From contig JBKQSS010000075.1 of the NCBI GenBank assembly GCA_052143535.1, positions 40,588-104,587 on the forward strand: a stretch of 64,000 bases of DNA, written 5' to 3'. Source of the stretch: Myxococcaceae bacterium. GTDB taxonomy: Bacteria; Myxococcota; Myxococcia; Myxococcales; Myxococcaceae. The translations under genes and the position numbers were made by a program. Position 1 is the stretch's first letter. Each line of letters begins with the position of its first letter. The notes beneath the pieces are model-generated. The model worked only from the letters and a program-made list of their open reading frames with translations, had not been told where the DNA came from and did not search any database. Positions 17,465 through 62,860 of the stretch are shown here, piece after piece.

Positions 17465-18438
17465 GCGGTGCGGGGCGGCTCAGAAGCGCCCGGAACGCTG
17501 GCTGTGCGCGCCGCACGTCGGTGGGCCCACAGAGCCCCCAGCGTCCCCACAATTCCGCGCCGGAAAAAGAGCACCGTCACCACGAAAACCAGCCCCGTCA
17601 CCAGGCCGGTGGCGGCGGTGGAGCGCGAGAGCGCGTCCCGCAGCAGGACGGTGACGGCGCTTCCCACCAGCGGCCCGAGGAAAGTGCCGGTGCCGCCGAG
17701 CAAGGTCGTCATCACCACTTGCCCGCTGGTCGTCCAGGAGAGCACGTCGAGCGAGACCACGCCGTGCGCGACAACGAAAAGCGCCCCGGCCAGCCCGGAC
17801 AGGGTAGCGGACAGCAAGAAGGCCAAGAGCTTGTGGGCCCACGTCGCGTAACCCACGCTTTGGGCACGGGTGTCGTTGTCGCGGATGGCGCGCAGCGCCG
17901 CGCCAAACGGGGAGTGGATGGTGCGGAAGGCCACCAGCGCACCGAGCGTCGAAACCACCAGCCCGAACCAGTAGGCGTGCAACGAATTGGAGAAGTCCAA
18001 GCCGAGCAGTGGGGGCCGGGGGATGTTGGGCATCCCACTCTCTCCGCCCGTTACCTCGTCCCATTGCTTGGCGATGAAGTCGACCATCTGCCCGAAGGCG
18101 AGCGTAATCATTGAGAAGTAGATGCCCACACTTCGGATGGACAGAAAGCCGATGGGGAGGGCGAGGACAAATGCGGCCGCCGTCCCCCCGAGCATGGCCA
18201 ACGGGACCCCGACTCCCAGGTGGAGAAGCAGCCACCCGGTGACGTAGGCGCTGGTGCCCCAAAAGGCTGCGTGCCCGAAGGACAGAAGGCCCACCTGGCC
18301 GAATACTAGGTCGAAGGCGAGCGCGAAGAGGCCGAGACAGAGGATGTCCAGGGCCACCACCGGGTAGACAACGAAGGGCAGCCCGACGAGCACCACCAGC
18401 GCCGCCGCTCCGGTGAGCAACCAGCTGCGGCCGCTCAT
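17461..18438 (-). CDS. livM: branched-chain amino acid ABC transporter permease (LivM type)
   Basis: ATG 18438 overlaps the livH stop (ATGA). The upstream part of track ORF 17461..18852 is an artefact that overlaps livH. Confidence 0.85.
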   Translation of the reverse strand: MSGRSWLLTGAAALVVLVGLPFVVYPVVALDILCLGLFALAFDLVFGQVGLLSFGHAAFWGTSAYVTGWLLLHLGVGVPLAMLGGTAAAFVLALPIGFLSIRSVGIYFSMITLAFGQMVDFIAKQWDEVTGGESGMPNIPRPPLLGLDFSNSLHAYWFGLVVSTLGALVAFRTIHSPFGAALRAIRDNDTRAQSVGYATWAHKLLAFLLSATLSGLAGALFVVAHGVVSLDVLSWTTSGQVVMTTLLGGTGTFLGPLVGSAVTVLLRDALSRSTAATGLVTGLVFVVTVLFFRRGIVGTLGALWAHRRAARTASVPGASEPPRTA

Positions 18439-22059: not shown

Positions 22060-22208
22060 AGGTTCGGCGCTTTGCGCGAGGGGCCGACGGCAGATGGACC
22101 TTAGCTGTGGCCTCGTGAAGGTCAACGAGGTTTAGCCACTCCCGGAGCGTATGCTCTCGTGACGCGCCGATGAGGCCCCTTTGGCCTTCGGAGAGAGGAA
22201 ATGACGCT

Positions 22209-22991
22209 ATGCGTATGAAGGGCCGTGTGGCACTGGTGACGGGGGCAGCAAGTGGCATTGGTCGCGCAATCTCCGAGGCTTTTTCCCGCGAGGGCGCCCA
22301 GGTGGGCGTGGCAGACATCAACGCTGCGGGAGCAACAGCTGTGGCGGACTCCATCGCCCACACCGGCGGCAGCGCCGTCGCCGTCCCCATGGACGTCACC
22401 GATGAGGCCCAAGTGAACGAGGGCGTCGACGCGCTGGTGGCGCGCTTCGGCACGGTGGACGTGCTGGTAAGCAACGCTGGTGTTCAGCACATCGCCGCGG
22501 TGGTCGACTGCAGCTTCGAGGCGTGGCGCAGGCTGCTCGCCATTCACCTCGACGGAGCCTTCCTCACCACCCGGGCCTGCATGCGCCGGATGGTGGCCTC
22601 CGGGAAGGGCGGCTGTCTTCTTTACATGGGCAGCGTGCACTCAGTGGAGGCCTCGCCGCTCAAGGCTCCGTACATCGCTGCCAAGCACGGCATCCTCGGC
22701 CTGGCCCGCGCAGTGGCGAAAGAGGGGGCGCCGCACGGCATTTGGAGCAACGTCATCGCGCCGGGCTTTGTGCGCACCCCACTGGTGGAGAGACAGATTC
22801 CAGAGCAAGCCCGCGACCTCGGCATCAGCGAGCAGGAGGTGGTGAAGAACGTCATGCTCAGAAATACGGTCGACGGCGAGTTCACCACGCTCGATGACGT
22901 CGCGCAGCTGGCAGTCTTCCTCGCGTCCTTTCCGAGTCGAGCGCTCACGGGCCAGTCGGTGGTGGTGAGTCACGGCTGGCATATGCAATGA
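22209..22991 (+). CDS. bdhA: 3-hydroxybutyrate dehydrogenase (SDR family)
   Basis: [11 protein letters not shown] Rossmann motif, NAG, and YxxxK in APYIAAKHG. The tail ...[31 protein letters not shown] is BdhA-like, and the gene is in PHA context. Confidence 0.8.
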
Positions 22992-23205
22992 CCTCTCGCC
23001 AAGACTAAGTCGTTCGGCCCGATACCTGAACGAAGTCGACCCCTGAACTTCCCGACACAGGCCTAAGGGCGACGTATTTCCCCATGAGAAAGCCAACCGG
23101 AGCTGCCCCCGGGTGCAAACCAATGGCGGCTTAGAGCGGCGCGCCGTGGCATTCGAAGGGTTGTCCTTACAGGGCGTGACCGCGGTCAAGATTGGCGCGA
23201 ACGCA

Positions 23206-24060
23206 CTACCCGCGCTTCGGCTTCTCGTGGGTCTCGACAAAGGTGAAGCCGAAACGGCCCTTCACGCACAGGTTCCCAGCGGTCACGCCGGAATCACTCG
23301 GCGACGTCACGCGGACAATTTTATTGTCTTGGACTCGCAGCGAGAGCGTACAGCCCACTCCGCAATATGGGCAGATGGTGTCTGTGACCGTTTGTTCCGA
23401 CTCTCGCCACTGACCAGCCTCGCGAAGGTCGTGCTCGGCCTTGAAGACCAGGGCACCCGTCGGACACGCGTTCACGCAGTTGCCACAAAAGACGCAAGCT
23501 GAGTCGGGCAGCGCCACCTCGTGCTCAGTGGCGATGCGTGCGTCGAAGCCGCGTCCGGCTACGGCGATAGCAAAGGTGTTTTGCGCATCGGTGCCGCAGG
23601 CCTCGACGCACTTATAGCAAAGCATGCAACGTCCGTAGTCGCGGACGAAGAGCTCATTGTCCACTGTTACTGGCTGGGCGACGCTCTCCGCCTTCGGTCC
23701 AAACCGCGCAGGGCGAGCTTCATACCGGGCTGCATATGCTGAGAACGCCGACGAGCGAGACATGTCGACAGAGGAACCGAGGAGCTCAATCACCAGTTTG
23801 CGGCTAAGCCGAACGCGGGGACTGTCGGTCAGGACTTTCATGCCCGGCTCGGCAAGGCGCGAGCAGGCTGGGACAAGGACGCGTGAGCCCTCGAGCTCGA
23901 CAACACAAATCCGGCACACATTGACCGGAGTCAGGTTCTCGGCCCAGCACAGCGTCGGCGTATCGATGCCAACGGATTGGCATGCCCCGAGCAACGTCGT
24001 CCCTTCTCGGACCGTCACGGGCTTCCCGTCGACAGAGAGCTCCACCGGCCGGGGCATCAT
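23206..24060 (-). CDS. fdsA: formate dehydrogenase alpha subunit, N-terminal Fe-S portion only (284 aa)
   Basis: It has a 2Fe-2S motif (LCWAENLTPVNVCRICVVELEG...PAC), two ferredoxin-type 4Fe-4S motifs (CMLCYKCVEACG, CVFCGNCVNACPTG) and the Mo-domain cluster CPYCGVGC...LCVKGRFGFTFVETHE. It ends KPKRG-stop where the Mo domain normally continues. The start overlaps the upstream stop (ATGA). Confidence 0.85.
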   Translation of the reverse strand: MMPRPVELSVDGKPVTVREGTTLLGACQSVGIDTPTLCWAENLTPVNVCRICVVELEGSRVLVPACSRLAEPGMKVLTDSPRVRLSRKLVIELLGSSVDMSRSSAFSAYAARYEARPARFGPKAESVAQPVTVDNELFVRDYGRCMLCYKCVEACGTDAQNTFAIAVAGRGFDARIATEHEVALPDSACVFCGNCVNACPTGALVFKAEHDLREAGQWRESEQTVTDTICPYCGVGCTLSLRVQDNKIVRVTSPSDSGVTAGNLCVKGRFGFTFVETHEKPKRG

Positions 24061-25895
24061 CCGGTGGGCCCTCGATGCGGCATCAGCTTGGCCAGGGCGG
24101 ATTGAATGGCCAGCGTCGCTGTCTGACCGAGCCCACAAATGGAGGCATCCTTCATCGCCTGAGCGAGCTCGGTCAGCAACTGGAGCTCAGCGTCCGTCGA
24201 CCCTAAGGGGATGCCCGCGGCAAGTCGCGTCAGCAGTTCCTCCTGACGCACGGTGCCGACACGACAAGGGACGCACTGCCCGCAGGACTCGTCGCGAAAG
24301 AAGGCCGCTAGGCGACGTAGGATTGGAGCAAGGGGCAATTCATCGTCCAGAACGAACACCACTCCGGATCCCAGTGAGGCCCCGATCTTGCGCGTGTCCT
24401 CGAAGGACAGCGGGACCGACAGCTCCTCAGGCGAGAGAAAGGTACTCGCCGCGCCACCAAGAAGGACGGCCTGAATTCGCCGACCCTTCGCAACGCCGCC
24501 CGCAAGTTCGATCAACGCGTCCAACCGAGTTCCGAAGGGGACTTCGTAAACGCCGGGTCGTGCGATTCGCCCGCAGACGCAAAATAGCTTCGTCCCGGGT
24601 GAGGCGGCCGTGCCGACGGACACGTACGAGGCGGCACCGTCGCGTACAATGTCGAGCACTGCGACCAACGTCTCCACGTTATTCACCGAGGTTGGTTTGC
24701 GGAAGAGACCTGAGTCCACCGGAAACGGCGGCTTATTCCGCGGCTCGCCGCGGAAACCTTCCAGAGAGTTGAAAAGAGCCGTCTCCTCGCCACAGATGTA
24801 AGCGCCGGCGCCACGGCGCAGCTCGATGTCGAAGGTAAAACCGCTTCCTAGAATCTCGGCGCCCAGCCAGTGCGTTGTACGAAGGAACTCAATGGCGTGC
24901 TCCAGTCGAGCGGCTGCCACGGGATATTCACCGCGGATGTACAGGTAGCCCCGTTCGGACCCGGTGGCAAAACCGGCGATGGTCATCGCCTCTAGGACCG
25001 CGAACGGGTCACTCTCCATCAGTACTCGATCCTTGAAGGTGCCCGGCTCAGACTCGTCAGCGTTGCACACGACATAGTGTGGACGTTCGGGAGCCCGCGC
25101 GACGGCCTCCCACTTGCGTCCGGTGGGAAAGGCGGCGCCGCCTCGGCCGACGAGCTTCGCTTCCGTCACTTCGCGAACGACGCCTTCTCGACCAAGCTCG
25201 AGTGCGCGCCGCAGCGCACGCTGCCCACCGTGCGCCTGGTAGGAATCCAGACTCAAGGGATCAACGAGGCCAGCTCGCACGAGCAACTTGCGAGGTCCTG
25301 TACCCCCGATGAATGCTGGCCTCCAGCGGGGGGGAGCGCCGCCCAGGGCAGCTTCGATCTGGGCAGTGGTCGCGCGACCAAACGCGACTTCCAACGGCGC
25401 CGCACCTGCGACGGACACCATTGCCGCAGGGGCTTGTTCGCAAAGTCCGAGGCAGGGGCTCCTTGCCCAAAGGGCGCTGGAATTCCCGGTGGTGTCCGGT
25501 GCGTCCGCTCGGTGCCGCGCGATCAATGGAGGTCCGAACTTGGCGTTGAGCTCCGCACACAGCTGCTCTGCCCCTGCGGCCTGGCAGACGATGTCGTCGC
25601 AGACATGAGCGAAGGCGCTCGAGCGCTCGGAGAGCGAAAACATCGCGTAGAAGCTCGCGACGCCGTAGGCCTCAGCCGGAGGAATTGCCAAACGGCGGCA
25701 GACGTAACCGAGTCCGCCAGGACTCACCCACCCGATCCGCGATTGGAGCGCATGCAGGCACGGCAGAAGGAGTGTCCGTTGGATCTTGGCGACGCTGGCC
25801 GGGGTCGGGATGTCAATCGGCAGCGGGCCGAGCACGGCATCAATCGCTGTGCTCTCAGGACCAGTCGGGGCTTCCGCGATGGCACGCAAGTCCAA
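24057..25895 (-). CDS. fdsB: NAD-linked formate dehydrogenase diaphorase: NuoE-like + NuoF-like fusion
   Basis: It has a thioredoxin-like 2Fe-2S part (…HVCDDIVC…SPCLGLCEQAP), an FMN/NADH part (GRGGAAFPTGRKW, YVVCNADESEPGTFKD) and a 4Fe-4S motif ESCGQCVPCR. The TTG start at 25895 is uncertain. Confidence 0.88.
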   Translation of the reverse strand: MDLRAIAEAPTGPESTAIDAVLGPLPIDIPTPASVAKIQRTLLLPCLHALQSRIGWVSPGGLGYVCRRLAIPPAEAYGVASFYAMFSLSERSSAFAHVCDDIVCQAAGAEQLCAELNAKFGPPLIARHRADAPDTTGNSSALWARSPCLGLCEQAPAAMVSVAGAAPLEVAFGRATTAQIEAALGGAPPRWRPAFIGGTGPRKLLVRAGLVDPLSLDSYQAHGGQRALRRALELGREGVVREVTEAKLVGRGGAAFPTGRKWEAVARAPERPHYVVCNADESEPGTFKDRVLMESDPFAVLEAMTIAGFATGSERGYLYIRGEYPVAAARLEHAIEFLRTTHWLGAEILGSGFTFDIELRRGAGAYICGEETALFNSLEGFRGEPRNKPPFPVDSGLFRKPTSVNNVETLVAVLDIVRDGAASYVSVGTAASPGTKLFCVCGRIARPGVYEVPFGTRLDALIELAGGVAKGRRIQAVLLGGAASTFLSPEELSVPLSFEDTRKIGASLGSGVVFVLDDELPLAPILRRLAAFFRDESCGQCVPCRVGTVRQEELLTRLAAGIPLGSTDAELQLLTELAQAMKDASICGLGQTATLAIQSALAKLMPHRGPTG

Positions 25896-25934
25896 GTTCG
25901 CGAAACTCTATCAGAGGCTTAGGGGAGGAGCCGC

Positions 25935-27860
25935 TTATGACACCGCATGAGCGGGCGGGCGAGCTTGCCATGCCCTAGACAGCTTCTCGACGCGAACCGC
26001 CGAAGCTTTGAACTCCGCGGTCCCCGATTTTGGGTCGGTCGCGTTGATGGTCAGGGTGTTGGTGTCGACGCTGTCCGGGAAATGGACCGTCATGAAGACC
26101 AGACCGGGCCGCAGGCCGGCGATGATGCGCACGGGGACTTCGACTGATCCTCGACGCGATACGATGCGCACCCATTCCCCGTCGCTGACATCGAGCGCAC
26201 GAGCATCCTCCGGACTCAGGTCGAGCGTCTCACCCCGAGCGTGTGGCCAAGCGAATCCTCCGCTCTGGACACCAGTATTGTATGACTCGAGACGCCTTCC
26301 GGTCGTGAGGCGCAAGGGAAATGACGCGTCGAGACCGTCCACCGGAGGGACCTGCTCCGCTGGCAGAAACGGCGCACGGGGACCGACCATTGGGTCGCTC
26401 CAGAGTCTCGCATGTAGGAACGGTGTCCCCGGGTGCTGCTCGTCAGGGCACGGCCATTGGATTCCGTCGAGTGCCTCGATGCGGGCGTAGCTCATCCCGG
26501 CGTGCATCGGGCTCAGCGCGCGAACCTCGTTCCAGATTGCTTCCGGATTCGATGAGCCCAAGTCGTACCCAAGGCGCCGGGAAAGGTCGGCCAGGATGAC
26601 GATGTCGTCGCGCGCTTGCCCAGGCGGCGTGAGGGCACGGCGGCATCGCTGAACACGTCGCTCGCTGTTGGTCACTGTGCCTTCGGACTCGCACCAGCTC
26701 GCCGAGGCCGGCAAGACGACGTCTGCCATCACCGCGGTCTTGGTCATGACGATGTCCTGAACCAGCAAGAACTCCAGCCCCTTCAACAGATTCATGGAGT
26801 GGTGTGAGTCGGCCTCGGATTGCGCCGGGTTCTCCCCGAGGACGTACAGTCCAGTCATCGCCTTGGTTTCCATGGCCTCGAACATCTCGGTGAGGTTCCA
26901 ACCCTTCTTTGGCGGGACGGGGCGGCCCCAGCATTGGTCGTAGCGGGCGCGCACCACGGGGTTTTCGACATCTTGAAACCCGGCCAGCTTGTTCGGGAGG
27001 GCCCCCATGTCTCCACCGCCTTGGACGTTGTTCTGCCCCCGCAGCGGGTTGAGTCCCGAGCCCCAGCGCCCGACATGGCCGGTGAGCAATCCAAGATTGA
27101 TGAGCGAACACACATTATCGACGGCGTTGTGGTGTTCTGTGATTCCAAGTGTCCAGCAGATGATGGCCTTGTCGGCTCGCGCGTATTCGCGAGCTACGCG
27201 TTGAATCAGCTCAGGAGAAACCTTTGTCTCTTGCGAGACTCTCGCCAGGTCGTACCTCTGAACGGTTTCTGAGTAGGCCTCGAAGCCCTCCGTCGCCCGG
27301 GCGATGAACGAGCGGTGCTCGAGGCCCTCTGCCAAAATGCAGCGGGCCATTCCATTGGCGAGGGTAATGTCGGTGCCCACATCGAGTTGAAGCCAACCGT
27401 CCGCCCATTCCGCGGAACTGGTGCGGCGCGGGTCCATCACAAAAAGCTTTCCCCCCCGTCGAATGGCCTTCAGGACGTGGTGGAAAAAAATCGGATGCGT
27501 TTCTCTGGCATTGCTGCCCCAGAGGATCATCACATCGGCTTCCTCAACTTCCTTGTAGGAACTCGTTCCGCCGCCTGCTCCGAAGACCGCCGCCAGACCG
27601 GCGACGCTTGGCGCGTGTCAAGTTCTGTTACAGCTGTCGATGTTGTTACTACCCACCGCGGCGCGCATGAACTTCTGCGCAGCAAAATTCACTTCGTTGG
27701 TGGCTTTGGAGCAGCTGAACATTCCAAACGAGTTCGCGCCGTGCCTCTCGACGACGCCGCGAATTCCTGCCGTCGCACGCTCGAGGGCCTGCTCCCAGCT
27801 GGCCGGGCGTAACTCCCCGTTCTCGCGGACGAGGGGTTCCGTGATTCGAGGCGGCGACAC
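25935..27860 (-). CDS. fdsA: formate dehydrogenase alpha subunit, catalytic Mo/W-bisPGD portion, selenocysteine-containing (Sec = codon 81, TGA at 27618..27620)
   Basis: Track ORFs 27618..27860 and 25935..27533 share a frame. The read-through gives ...NNIDSCNRT-U-HAPSVAGLAAVFG...MILWGSNARETHPIFFHH...GQNNVQGG..., which is the FdhF/FdsA catalytic core. Total 641 codons. Confidence 0.85.
27585..27617 (-). promoter_or_regulatory. bacterial SECIS-like hairpin directly 3' of the UGA
   Basis: The mRNA reads UGA CAC GCG CCA AGC GUC GCC GGU CUG GCG GCG GUC. The stem GUCGCC/GGCGGC (27605..27600 with 27594..27589) closes a GGUCU apical loop. Confidence 0.7.
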
Positions 27861-28012: not shown

Positions 28013-29497
28013 CTAGAACTGGAAGAAGCGCTCCATCGGCACCCCGTCATCTTCGCGGACGTGCCGAAACTCGTTGGTGGTCGACGAGTAGCGATAGTCG
28101 GCCCCCCAGGTCTTTGCATGCTCGACACAGCTGCGGACCGCTGCGGCCAGGGCGCGCACCTCCTCGGTGGTGGTGGTGGGATGGAGCGAGATGCGCACCC
28201 AGCCGGGCTTGTCTGAGAGATCCCCGAGGTCGATTTTGTCGGTGATGCGGCTCGAGCGATTCGGATCGACGTGCAGCAAATAGTGCCCGTAAGTCCCCGC
28301 GCACGAGCAGCCGCCGCGCACTTGGACGCCGAAGCGGTCGTTGAGCAGCTTCACCAAAAGGTTGTAGTGCAGGTCTTCGACATAAAAAGAGACGATGGCC
28401 AGGCGGTCGTCGACATGGTCGGCCAAAAGGTGCAGTCGCGGAATGCTTCGAAGCTTGCCGAGCAACAACTGCAGTAGCTCATGTTCGCGCTCGAGCATTC
28501 GAGCCGTTCCCATGGCCTCCTTGAGCTGCACCGCGAGCGCCGCCTTGATGGTTTGCAGAAAGCCGGGCGTTCCACCGTCCTCGCGCGCTTCGATGTTGTC
28601 CACGAAACTGTGCTGATGCCAGGGGTTGGTCCAGTTCACGGTGCCGCCGCCAGGCTGGTCCGGGACTCGATTGTGGTAGAGCTGCGAGTTGAAGACGAGC
28701 ACGCCGGAGCTTCCCGGGCCGCCGAGGAACTTGTGCGGCGAGAAATAGACGCCGTCGAGTCGGTCCAAAGGGTCCGCCGGGTGCATGTCGATGTCGACGT
28801 ACGGAGCCGACGCTGCATAGTCGATGAAGCAGTAGCCGCCGTGCTCGTGCATCACTCGGGCCAGCCGATGGACGGGCGTCCTAATGCCAGTGACATTCGA
28901 GCAGTCGGTGAATGCCCCGAGCTTCAACGGCCGCTCGCGATAGCGTGCGAGCGTTTCTGCGAGTTGGTCCACGCCCACCAGGCCGAGTGCGTCTGGCGGG
29001 ATGACCTCCACGTCGGCAACTGTTTCCAGCCAGGACGTCTGGTTGGAGTGGTGCTCCATGTGCGTCACGAAGACCACCGGCCGTAGCTCCGCGGGAAGAC
29101 GGCAAAACGGCGCGAGCTGCTCCGGCAGCCGAAGGCCAAGCATTCGCTGGAGCTTGTTCACCACCGCCGTCATCCCCGAGCCCTGGGTGATGATGACGTC
29201 GTCGGGTCCGGCGTGGACGTGCTCCTTGAGAATTGTCTGCGCGTGTCGGTAGGCGCGGGTCATCGCCACACCAGTGGTGCTCGACTCAGAATGGGTGTTG
29301 CCCACCAGTGGCCCAAACCGCTCGACGAGGCAGCGCTCGATGGGCGCATAGAGGCGACCGCTGGCCGTCCAATCCGCGTACAAGAGCTGCTGCTCGCCAC
29401 AGGGCCCAGTGAAACAGTGGCGCAAGCCGACGATGCCCTCGCGAAATTTCGCGAAGAAGCCAGCCAGGCGCTCTGTTTCCGCGAGGGGGAGTTGCAC
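28013..29497 (-). CDS. aminotransferase class V-fold PLP-dependent enzyme (cysteine desulfurase / selenocysteine lyase-like)
   Basis: 494 aa with the PLP-lysine context VYFSPHKFLGGPGSSGVL, plus THMEHHSNQTSW. Confidence 0.7.
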   Translation of the reverse strand: MQLPLAETERLAGFFAKFREGIVGLRHCFTGPCGEQQLLYADWTASGRLYAPIERCLVERFGPLVGNTHSESSTTGVAMTRAYRHAQTILKEHVHAGPDDVIITQGSGMTAVVNKLQRMLGLRLPEQLAPFCRLPAELRPVVFVTHMEHHSNQTSWLETVADVEVIPPDALGLVGVDQLAETLARYRERPLKLGAFTDCSNVTGIRTPVHRLARVMHEHGGYCFIDYAASAPYVDIDMHPADPLDRLDGVYFSPHKFLGGPGSSGVLVFNSQLYHNRVPDQPGGGTVNWTNPWHQHSFVDNIEAREDGGTPGFLQTIKAALAVQLKEAMGTARMLEREHELLQLLLGKLRSIPRLHLLADHVDDRLAIVSFYVEDLHYNLLVKLLNDRFGVQVRGGCSCAGTYGHYLLHVDPNRSSRITDKIDLGDLSDKPGWVRISLHPTTTTEEVRALAAAVRSCVEHAKTWGADYRYSSTTNEFRHVREDDGVPMERFFQF

Positions 29498-61852: not shown

Positions 61853-62860
61853 ATGGCCACGACACGACGGAAGCTTCTCCAGACGGCGGGCGCTGCTGCC
61901 GCAGGGACGGTGCTCTTGAGTCGGCCAACAAAGGCTGCCGGAAAGGCAAGCCCGACTTTCTCACCGCGCTCCCTCAGCTACTGCATGTTGCAGGGTCCGA
62001 GCGGCATGAGCCTCGGGGTGAAGCATGATGAGCGCATCCTCGATGTCGGAAAGGCAGGGAAGCTCTTGGGCACAGCGGTACCTGCCAGCACGGACGATGT
62101 CATCGCCGGGCGCAACCTCAAGGGGCTGCAAGAAGCGCTCACTGCGGCTGCCTCCTTGAAGGCCGTCTTTATCCAGCAGAGTAGCGCTCAATTCGGCCCC
62201 TGCATCACTGCTCCCCAGAAAATCATCATGTTGGGCTTCAACTACCGTCGCCACGCGATGGAGACAGGAACGCCCATCCCCAAAGCACCGGTCCTCTTCA
62301 ATAAATACAACAACGCACTTTCCGGTCACGGGGGAATCATCAAGCTCCCTACCCAGGTTGCCTCGAAGTTCGATTACGAGGTCGAGCTCCAGGTCATCAT
62401 CGGCAAGACGGCACACCAGGTGGCCGAGGCGGACGCGCTCGGTTATGTGTTTGGCTATGCCACCGGCAACGATTTCTCGGCGCGCGACCTCCAGTTTCGC
62501 GATGGAAAGGCGTCGCAGTTCATGCTCGGGAAGACGTCCGATGGATTCATGCCCATTGGCCCATGGCTGGTGGGTGCCGAGTTGGTCGGGGACCCTCAGA
62601 AGCTAGCCGTGGAGTGCCGCGTCAACGGCGAGTCGCGCCAGTCCTCAAACACGAGCGACATGATTTTCACCTGTGCCCAAATCATCAGCTACGCCTCACA
62701 AGTCTTCACGCTCTCTCCAGGGGACCTCATCTCAACGGGCACGCCGGAGGGCGTCATTGGCGGCAAGCCGGAGGCACAGCAAGTCTGGCTCAAGCCCGGG
62801 GACAAAATCGCCTGCAGTGTCGAGAAGCTTGGCGAGCTCCAGTTCAACCTGGCGGGGTAA
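61853..62860 (+). CDS. fumarylacetoacetate hydrolase (FAH) family protein with a Tat-type signal peptide
   Basis: MATTRRKLLQTAGAAAAGTVLLS is twin-Arg. The FAH core reads FDYEVELQVIIGK...GNDFSARDLQ...GKTSDGFMPIGPW...PGDLISTGTPEGV. Confidence 0.8.
   Translation: MATTRRKLLQTAGAAAAGTVLLSRPTKAAGKASPTFSPRSLSYCMLQGPSGMSLGVKHDERILDVGKAGKLLGTAVPASTDDVIAGRNLKGLQEALTAAASLKAVFIQQSSAQFGPCITAPQKIIMLGFNYRRHAMETGTPIPKAPVLFNKYNNALSGHGGIIKLPTQVASKFDYEVELQVIIGKTAHQVAEADALGYVFGYATGNDFSARDLQFRDGKASQFMLGKTSDGFMPIGPWLVGAELVGDPQKLAVECRVNGESRQSSNTSDMIFTCAQIISYASQVFTLSPGDLISTGTPEGVIGGKPEAQQVWLKPGDKIACSVEKLGELQFNLAG

What the first reader, a model, noticed from the sequence alone, without database searches (positions are those of the whole stretch)
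27585..27860. In-frame UGA with an fdhF-like SECIS hairpin: two track ORFs are one selenocysteine formate dehydrogenase subunit
Track ORFs 27618..27860(-) and 25935..27533(-) share one frame (27620-27533 = 87 nt). Only the TGA at 27618..27620 separates them. Reading through gives ...GSNNIDSCNRT-[UGA]-HAPSVAGLAAVFGAGGGTSSYKEVEEADVMILWGSNARETHP.... The 'stop' therefore sits at the Sec/Cys-His molybdenum-ligand motif of formate dehydrogenases.

Twelve nt after the codon, the mRNA can fold as GUCGCC-GGUCU-GGCGGC (27605..27589). That is 6 bp including one G-U pair, with a 5-nt loop. From memory, the E. coli fdhF SECIS carries the same GGUCU apical loop in the same codon register (codons 7-8 after UGA, encoding Gly-Leu). 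Automated annotation would truncate or split this gene.
Basis: partly seen in the sequence, partly recalled or inferred. Interest (0 to 1): 0.6.

Follow-up and report, generated by a model that had tools for sequence, protein, structure and literature searches.

The report
Selenocysteine codon in formate dehydrogenase gene
The apparent stop codon that splits this gene is almost certainly read as selenocysteine, so the two fragments are one formate dehydrogenase catalytic subunit; this is an ordinary, well-known kind of recoding that gene callers routinely mis-annotate.

Summary
On the minus strand, one in-frame TGA (27620..27618) separates ORFs 27860..27618 and 27533..25935. Read through, they give a 641-residue Mo/W-bisPGD formate dehydrogenase catalytic subunit.

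- **Active-site position.** The TGA aligns with Sec140 of E. coli K-12 FdhF. His141 and Arg333 are also conserved.
- **Conservation.** The same codon is TGA in all 80 best orthologous loci from at least eight phyla. It is also TGA in every ortholog found in the genus and family of this genome.
- **SECIS hairpin.** GUCGCC-GGUCU-GGCGGC is not unusually stable (z = +1.17). Its six core pairs are nevertheless kept in 82 of 82 distinct Sec-type sequences, with compensatory C-G to G-C changes.
- **Cys-type control.** Fifteen Cys-type orthologs encode the same CHAPSVAGL peptide. None keeps the full stem or the GGU glycine codon.
- **Machinery.** The genome has selA, selB (with both winged-helix domains), selD (itself with a Sec-position TGA) and tRNA-Sec. 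TGA is also its commonest normal stop.

Formate dehydrogenase alpha is the most widespread bacterial selenoprotein, so novelty is low. One side point: the subunit lacks its 4Fe-4S domain, which a separate downstream gene encodes. That gene order is conserved.

The parts
25935..27860 (-). One gene for the catalytic Mo/W-bisPGD subunit of a formate dehydrogenase. It has 641 codons, a GTG start, Sec at codon 81 and a TAA stop. It lacks the N-terminal 4Fe-4S domain.
   Evidence: Translation with TGA=U. Pfam Molybdopterin (6.2e-65) and Molydop_binding (7.5e-26), with no Molybdop_Fe4S4. TIGR01591 scores 621 bits over profile positions 52-672. It is 35% identical to E. coli FdhF over residues 60-689. 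tblastn matches (one segment per locus listed) run through the TGA in the 80 related loci.
27618..27620 (-). UGA codon read as selenocysteine (residue 81), the predicted Mo/W ligand.
   Evidence: It aligns with residue 140 (the TGA) of E. coli K-12 fdhF. The codon is TGA in 80 of 80 best orthologous loci. It is TGC or TGT in 15 Cys-type orthologs.
27588..27606 (-). SECIS apical hairpin. The core stem is 27605..27600 paired with 27594..27589. The loop GGUCU is at 27599..27595. An optional seventh pair is C27606-G27588. The hairpin starts 11-12 nt after the UGA.
   Evidence: Fold. Pair counts on 82 distinct sequences show the core 100% paired; pair 18-30 is CG in 74 and GC in 8; pair 20-28 is UG in 45, CG in 32 and UA in 5; the covariation score exceeds all 500 shuffles. 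The stem is not kept in Cys-type orthologs. The register matches E. coli fdhF. A weak Rfam SECIS_3 match is anchored on the UGA.
24057..25895 (-). Downstream partner gene: a NuoE-NuoF fusion (2Fe-2S, FMN/NAD(H) site, 4Fe-4S). This is the diaphorase subunit.
   Evidence: Pfam 2Fe-2S_thioredx, Complex1_51K, SLBB and NADH_4Fe-4S. NuoF family TIGR01959 at 439 bits. It is found downstream of the Sec gene in 75 of 80 related loci, directly after it in most.
23206..24060 (-). Fe-S subunit (284 aa from ATG 24060). It carries 2Fe-2S and two ferredoxin-type 4Fe-4S sites, plus the Molybdop_Fe4S4 domain that the catalytic subunit lacks. Its start overlaps the previous stop as ATGA.
   Evidence: Pfam Fer2_4, Fer4_7 and Molybdop_Fe4S4 at residues 250-301 of the 310-codon ORF. 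ATGA overlap. It is conserved as the third gene in related loci.

Best explanation
The TGA at 27620..27618 is a selenocysteine codon. SelB carrying Sec-tRNA(Sec) binds the apical hairpin that starts 11-12 nt downstream. The hairpin has a 6-7 bp stem and a GGUCU loop, with G23 and U24 at the same positions as in E. coli fdhF. SelB then delivers Sec to the ribosome, and one 641-residue protein is made. Sec81, followed by His82 and helped by Arg274, is predicted to ligate the Mo or W of the bis-PGD cofactor and to catalyse formate/CO2 interconversion. The protein is the catalytic subunit of a three-gene, probably NAD(H)-linked formate dehydrogenase. Electrons would pass through the Fe-S subunit (24060..23206), which carries the 4Fe-4S domain missing from the catalytic subunit, to the NuoE-NuoF fusion (25895..24057).

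Inferred: actual Sec insertion, the choice of metal, NAD coupling and the direction of catalysis.
For: - One in-frame TGA separates the two ORFs, with coding sequence conserved on both sides.
- U81 aligns with Sec140 of E. coli FdhF. His141 and Arg333 are also conserved, as His82 and Arg274. U81 also aligns with the ligand Cys of solved formate dehydrogenases 7qv7 and 7bkb.
- The codon is TGA in 80 of 80 best orthologous loci from Myxococcota, Planctomycetota, Chloroflexota, Actinomycetota, Acidobacteriota, Rokubacteria/Methylomirabilota and Spirochaetota. It is TGA in 7 of 7 other species of the genus.
- Core hairpin pairs are kept in 82 of 82 distinct sequences, with compensatory changes.
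- Fifteen Cys-type orthologs encode the same CHAPSVAGL peptide. None has all six pairs. Their Gly codon is GGG, GGC or GGA and never GGT. Five Sec-type genes in the same class all keep the stem and GGT.
- selA scores 532.6 bits. selB scores 282.5 bits and has SelB-wing_2 and SelB-wing_3. selD scores 375 bits and has TGA in the motif SHCAG-U-AAK, where E. coli SelD (recalled, not checked here) has its catalytic Cys17. tRNA-Sec is found by ARAGORN and by Rfam at 71.8 bits.
- A second Sec formate dehydrogenase in the same genome has a hairpin with loop AGUUU at the same register.
- TGA closes 806 of 1411 long frames in this genome, so it is not reassigned genome-wide.
Against: - There is no direct evidence of translation or selenium incorporation.
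- The hairpin is no more stable than shuffled sequence (z = +1.17).
- No Rfam SECIS model reaches its gathering score. The best is SECIS_3 at 14.9 bits against 63.
- The longer lower helix that RNAfold draws has no covariation support.
- Four of the six stem pairs follow from the peptide sequence alone.
Confidence: 0.95

Rival explanations
1. The TGA is a true stop. The locus is a broken gene, or it yields two separate products: an 80-residue N-terminal peptide and a 532-residue protein restarted at GTG 27533.
For: TGA is the commonest ordinary stop in this genome. Gene callers do split the gene this way. The hairpin has no energetic distinction.
Against: A disabling stop would not sit at the same codon in 80 of 80 orthologs across phyla, with both flanks conserved as protein. 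A restart at 27533 would leave out residues 82-109. These include the invariant HAPSV[AV]GL motif next to the metal ligand. The genome maintains a complete Sec apparatus.
Confidence: 0.02
2. The UGA is read through with a standard amino acid (Cys or Trp, by near-cognate decoding) rather than Sec. The hairpin would only slow termination.
For: Low-level near-cognate UGA read-through exists in bacteria (general knowledge). Cys is functional at this position in orthologs.
Against: Lineages that use Cys encode it as TGC or TGT and have lost the hairpin. Lineages with TGA keep a hairpin whose loop and register match the SelB-binding element of E. coli fdhF. The genome carries SelB with its RNA-binding winged-helix domains.
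Confidence: 0.02
3. Assembly or sequencing error: the true codon is TGC or TGT.
For: The genome is a draft of 105 contigs. Reads could not be examined.
Against: Independent assemblies of 80 other species, and of 7 congeners, have TGA at the same place. The downstream synonymous sites (GGT, and the paired third positions) are those of Sec-type genes, not Cys-type genes.
Confidence: 0.01

Closest known systems
E. coli formate dehydrogenase H (fdhF, Sec140) and its SECIS
   Same: The Sec codon is at the aligned active-site column. His and Arg333 are conserved. The motif after the UGA is H-x-P-S-V-A-G-L. The apical hairpin starts 11-12 nt after the UGA, with GGUCU at nt 22-26 so that G23 and U24 coincide.
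   Different: Only 35% identical. FdhH carries its own N-terminal 4Fe-4S domain and works in the formate hydrogenlyase complex. In E. coli the loop is GGUC closed by A-U and U17 is bulged (from memory of the literature). Here the loop is 5 nt closed by C-G and U17 is paired.
Cys-type orthologs in cultured Actinomycetes (Saccharopolyspora, Kutzneria, Nonomuraea, Nocardiopsis, Thermopolyspora, Streptomyces)
   Same: 60-64% identical over the full length, and they also lack the Fe4S4 domain. They have the same three-gene order: Mo subunit, NuoEF fusion, Fe-S subunit with Molybdop_Fe4S4.
   Different: The codon is TGC or TGT and there is no conserved hairpin. An FdhD gene often follows. They form one subclade of the tree, nested among Sec-type sequences.
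NAD-linked metal formate dehydrogenases: FdsABG of Rhodobacter capsulatus (PDB 6tg9) and tungsten FDH1 of Methylobacterium extorquens (PDB 7vw6, 7e5z)
   Same: The catalytic domain is homologous (E 1e-116 to 1e-120). The partner has NuoE and NuoF modules, and there is a NuoG-like Fe-S module.
   Different: Those enzymes use Cys, and their alpha subunit is a single polypeptide of about 960-990 residues. Here the ligand is Sec. The alpha subunit is split into two genes placed on either side of the diaphorase gene.
Rfam SECIS_3 (RF01989)
   Same: The match starts exactly at the UGA, and the GUC of the loop aligns.
   Different: 14.9 bits against a gathering score of 63 (E = 1.9). It is not a member by Rfam's criterion.

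Membership tests
Bacterial selenoprotein gene (UGA-Sec with SECIS) | In-frame UGA with conserved coding sequence on both sides | tested here: met
   The tblastn matches listed, one per locus, run through the TGA in the related loci.
Bacterial selenoprotein gene (UGA-Sec with SECIS) | The UGA column is occupied by Cys in some homologs and lies in a redox or active site | tested here: met
   TGC or TGT in 15 Cys-type orthologs. The column is Sec140 of E. coli FdhF.
Bacterial selenoprotein gene (UGA-Sec with SECIS) | Stem-loop immediately downstream of the UGA, with G/U in the apical loop, conserved among Sec-type genes | tested here: met
   Core stem paired in 82 of 82 sequences with compensatory changes. 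The loop is GGUCU in 79 and GGGCU in 3. The stem is absent in Cys-type genes. Thermodynamic stability is not exceptional.
Bacterial selenoprotein gene (UGA-Sec with SECIS) | selA, selB, selC and selD present in the genome | tested here: met
   SelB has SelB-wing_2 and SelB-wing_3.
Bacterial selenoprotein gene (UGA-Sec with SECIS) | Selenium actually incorporated at the UGA | not testable with these tools
   Needs 75Se labelling or mass spectrometry.
Rfam bacterial SECIS families | Score at or above the family's gathering threshold | tested here: not met
   Best is SECIS_3 at 14.9 bits against 63.
Mo/W-bisPGD formate dehydrogenase alpha (TIGR01591, FdhF type) | Molybdopterin and Molydop_binding domains, plus the catalytic triad Sec/Cys-His and Arg | tested here: met
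   U81/H82/R274 align with U140/H141/R333 of E. coli FdhF.
Mo/W-bisPGD formate dehydrogenase alpha (TIGR01591, FdhF type) | Whole-protein score above NCBIfam's cut-off, with the N-terminal 4Fe-4S domain in the same polypeptide | tested here: not met
   621 bits against a cut-off of 666.25. The match starts at profile position 52. The Fe4S4 domain is on the separate protein 24060..23206.
NAD-linked FdsABG/Fdh1AB-type formate dehydrogenase | NuoE/NuoF-like FMN diaphorase and NuoG-like Fe-S module encoded with the catalytic subunit | tested here: met
   The gene order is conserved in relatives. NAD(H) coupling itself was not tested.

The most novel reading that the evidence does not exclude
The Sec-type form of this split formate dehydrogenase (catalytic subunit, NuoEF fusion, Fe-S subunit) is a large clade spread over at least eight mostly soil and groundwater phyla. 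Gene callers systematically truncate it in public protein sets. Sec is the ancestral state. The Cys forms of cultured Actinomycetes arose by one or two Sec-to-Cys replacements, after which the SECIS decayed at synonymous sites. The conserved V-A-G-L-A peptide itself pre-encodes four of the six stem pairs, which may make Sec/Cys switching easy in this family.
Probability: 0.55. Interest if true: 0.35.

Novelty: new member of a known kind. Interest (0 to 1): 0.25.

Why it matters
**Annotation.** The correct product is one 641-residue selenoprotein, not an 80-aa and a 532-aa fragment. The same correction applies to the 80 orthologous loci fetched here. The closest database entries, at 500-551 aa, all start after the TGA.

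**Biology.** The organism appears to be an uncultured member of the Myxococcota. The finding shows that it needs selenium for at least three proteins: this formate dehydrogenase, an FdnG-like one and SelD.

**Wider significance is small.** Formate dehydrogenase alpha and SelD are the most widespread bacterial selenoproteins (PMC5029168, Table 3: 822 organisms for FDH alpha). The recoding element here is of the classic fdhF type.

**A useful by-product.** The paired Sec-type and Cys-type orthologs give a clean natural control. They show that the hairpin is selected at the RNA level.

Tried and rejected
- **Folding energy as evidence for the hairpin.** z = +1.17, so it is not informative in this GC-rich coding context.
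- **Rfam at a relaxed threshold.** Only a sub-threshold SECIS_3 match was found.
- **An extended lower helix** (alignment columns 7-14 with 37-44). It is 75.6% paired, which equals the shuffled expectation, and it shows no covariation. It is rejected as part of the element.
- **The upstream class-V aminotransferase/SufS-like gene (29497..28013) as part of the operon.** It was not found next to the gene in any of the 80 related loci, so it is rejected.
- **ORFs 23240..22641 and 22640..22122.** They have no Pfam match and are not conserved in the related loci.
- **Genome-wide TGA reassignment.** Rejected, because TGA closes 806 of 1411 long frames.
- **Two literature searches for a description of the split architecture found none**. 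That is weak negative evidence only.

Full report
**1. The observation**

On the minus strand, ORFs 27860..27618 and 27533..25935 are in one frame. A single TGA at 27620..27618 separates them. Translating 27860..25935 with TGA read as U gives a 641-residue protein with no other stop.

The hairpin GUCGCC-GGUCU-GGCGGC is at 27605..27589. RNAfold's centroid structure is this hairpin plus one more pair, C27606-G27588.

**2. What the protein is**

- Pfam finds the Molybdopterin and Molydop_binding domains.
- The best NCBIfam model is formate dehydrogenase alpha, TIGR01591, at 621 bits. This is below its 666-bit cut-off because the match starts at profile position 52.
- The best solved relatives are formate dehydrogenases: 7qv7 FdhF at 1e-150, 7bkb, and E. 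coli FdhH 1aa6 at 1e-123.
- I fetched fdhF from E. coli K-12 MG1655. In the pairwise alignment, residue 81 falls on residue 140, the E. coli Sec. His82 falls on His141 and Arg274 on Arg333.
- In fdhF itself the first stop in frame is codon 140.

The TGA therefore sits on the metal-ligand column.

**3. Conservation of the TGA**

A scan of one genome per species returned 593 relatives. The best 80 come from MAGs labelled Myxococcota, Planctomycetota, Chloroflexota, Actinomycetota (Gaiellales, Thermoleophilia), Acidobacteriota, Rokubacteria/Methylomirabilota and Spirochaetia.

- All 80 have TGA at this codon, inside the motif N-N-[IV]-D-S-C-N-R-T-U-H-A-P-S-V-[AV]-G-L.
- For each locus the listed tblastn match of the window protein is a single segment that runs from residues 1-5 (13 in one locus) through the TGA to about residue 630.
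- All 7 other species of the window's genus have the gene, each with the TGA. So do 4 other genera of its family.

A disabling stop would not be kept like this.

**4. The hairpin**

Energy does not single it out: z = +1.17 against dinucleotide shuffles. No Rfam SECIS model reaches threshold. The best is SECIS_3 at 14.9 bits, though that match begins exactly at the UGA. Four of the six pairs are also forced by the codons of V-A-G-L-A-A. The test therefore has to be comparative.

*Sec-type sequences.* I aligned 82 distinct sequences, each the TGA plus 45 nt, and counted pairs.

| Feature | Result |
|---|---|
| Six core pairs | Paired in all 82 sequences |
| Pair 18-30 | C-G in 74, G-C in 8, never unpaired |
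| Pair 20-28 | U-G in 45, C-G in 32, U-A in 5, never C-A |
| Covariation score | Exceeds all 500 shuffles |
| Register | Sliding the partner by 1-2 columns drops pairing to 16-33% |
| Loop | GGUCU in 79, GGGCU in 3 |

*Cys-type controls.* Fifteen orthologs from Actinomycetes encode the identical CHAPSVAGL peptide.

- None keeps all six pairs. They keep 2 to 5.
- Their glycine codon is GGG, GGC or GGA, never GGT.
- Five Sec-type genes from the same class all have the full stem and GGT.

*Other points.*

- The longer lower helix that RNAfold sometimes draws shows no covariation, so only the apical hairpin is supported.
- A hairpin of this geometry with a GGUCU loop occurs 12 times in 8.9 million positions of the genome.
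- Against E. coli fdhF the register is identical. GGUCU occupies nt 22-26 from the U of UGA in both genes.
- From memory of the E. coli literature, the minimal SelB-binding element is the 17-nt apical stem-loop placed 11 nt after the UGA, with G23 and U24 essential. That fits here, but I did not check it against a paper.

**5. The machinery**

| Gene | Place in the genome | Evidence |
|---|---|---|
| selA | C47 | 532.6 bits |
| selB | C48 | 282.5 bits; EF-Tu GTPase, SelB beta-barrel, SelB-wing_2 and SelB-wing_3 domains |
| selD | C62 | 375 bits, with its own TGA in SHCAG-U-AAK, where E. coli SelD (recalled, not checked here) has its catalytic Cys17 |
| tRNA-Sec | C5:62012-62107 | ARAGORN; Rfam 71.8 bits |

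- A second Sec candidate is an FdnG-like formate dehydrogenase on C65. It has the hairpin GGUGGCC-AGUUU-GGCCGCC at the same distance from its TGA.
- FdhD is present on C56.
- TGA closes 806 of 1411 long frames, so the code is standard and the recoding is local.

**6. Context**

The catalytic subunit begins where FdhF-type proteins have finished their 4Fe-4S domain. That domain is not upstream: the next gene up is a class-V aminotransferase.

- The gene downstream (25895..24057) is a NuoE-NuoF fusion.
- The third gene (24060..23206) encodes 2Fe-2S, two 4Fe-4S sites and the missing Molybdop_Fe4S4 domain. Its start overlaps the previous stop as ATGA.
- This order is kept in about 75 of the 80 loci and in the Cys-type Actinomycete loci.

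It is a conserved arrangement, not a local rearrangement.

**7. Evolution**

I built a quick maximum-likelihood tree of 116 sequences, rooted on unsplit FdsA-type relatives.

- The window sits with Myxococcota-labelled sequences (SH-aLRT 98-99).
- All 15 Cys-type orthologs fall in one Actinomycete subclade, nested among Sec-type sequences.
- Three state changes are needed in all.

One caveat: the 80 loci were chosen as best hits to a Sec-type query, so the proportions of Sec and Cys forms are biased.

**8. Comparison with what is known**

Formate dehydrogenase alpha and SelD are the most widespread bacterial selenoproteins (PMC5029168, Table 3 and text). Annotation pipelines commonly miss them where UGA is the main stop (PMC13449736). 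This gene is therefore a new, currently mis-called member of a very well-known kind.

In the protein collection the window's own product appears as a 531-aa fragment. Its closest relatives appear as fragments of 500-551 aa.

**9. Verdict**

The probability that the TGA encodes Sec is about 0.95.

Still missing is direct evidence of incorporation.

Interest is low to moderate. The main value is correct annotation. The Sec/Cys ortholog contrast is also a clean demonstration of selection on the RNA.

Noticed in passing
window 23206-27860 (-): The formate dehydrogenase alpha subunit is split at the boundary between the Fe4S4 domain and the molybdopterin domain. Its halves are permuted around the NuoEF gene: catalytic part, NuoEF fusion, Fe-S part. 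The order is conserved in about 75 of 80 Sec-type loci from many phyla and in Cys-type Actinomycetes. Two literature searches found no description of it.
   Followed up: partly
genome contig C62:44574-45500 (+), locus L010: selD carries its own in-frame TGA in the motif SHCAG-U-AAK. A hairpin whose apex reads GGUCC lies about 33 nt downstream.
   Followed up: partly
genome contig C65:17873-20827 (+), TGA at 18314: A second Sec candidate: an FdnG/FdoG-like formate dehydrogenase of about 1070 residues (motif QARV-U-HGPTVASL). It has the hairpin GGUGGCC-AGUUU-GGCCGCC at the same register as the one studied here.
   Followed up: partly
window 28013-29497 (-): A 494-aa class-V aminotransferase, SufS-like (TIGR01979 at 129 bits, far below its cut-off), lies directly upstream of the Sec gene. 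It is not found next to the gene in any of the 80 related loci. Its role is unknown; cysteine desulfurase or selenocysteine lyase are possibilities.
   Followed up: partly
L132 1411-4518; L134 1-2518: In Saccharopolyspora and Nonomuraea, the Cys-type operon lies next to a gene for a thiamine-diphosphate (TPP) enzyme and one for a CoA-transferase family III protein. These may be oxalyl-CoA decarboxylase and formyl-CoA transferase, which would point to formate derived from oxalate. MoeA and FdhD genes are also nearby in several of these loci.
   Followed up: no
window 24057-24060 (-): An ATGA overlap joins the stop of the NuoEF fusion to the start of the Fe-S subunit, which suggests translational coupling. 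The ORF list instead extends the Fe-S ORF to a TTG at 24138.
   Followed up: yes
G471:C1:8033749-8035653 and G475:C12:24086-25972 (same family as the window's genome): These two orthologs show 4 and 2 TGA codons inside the match rather than 1. They may be decaying copies, or the match may be spilling into another frame.
   Followed up: no
genome contig C5:56938-62107: tRNA-Sec (62012-62107) lies about 3 kb downstream of a 736-residue Mo-enzyme gene that has no in-frame TGA.
   Followed up: no
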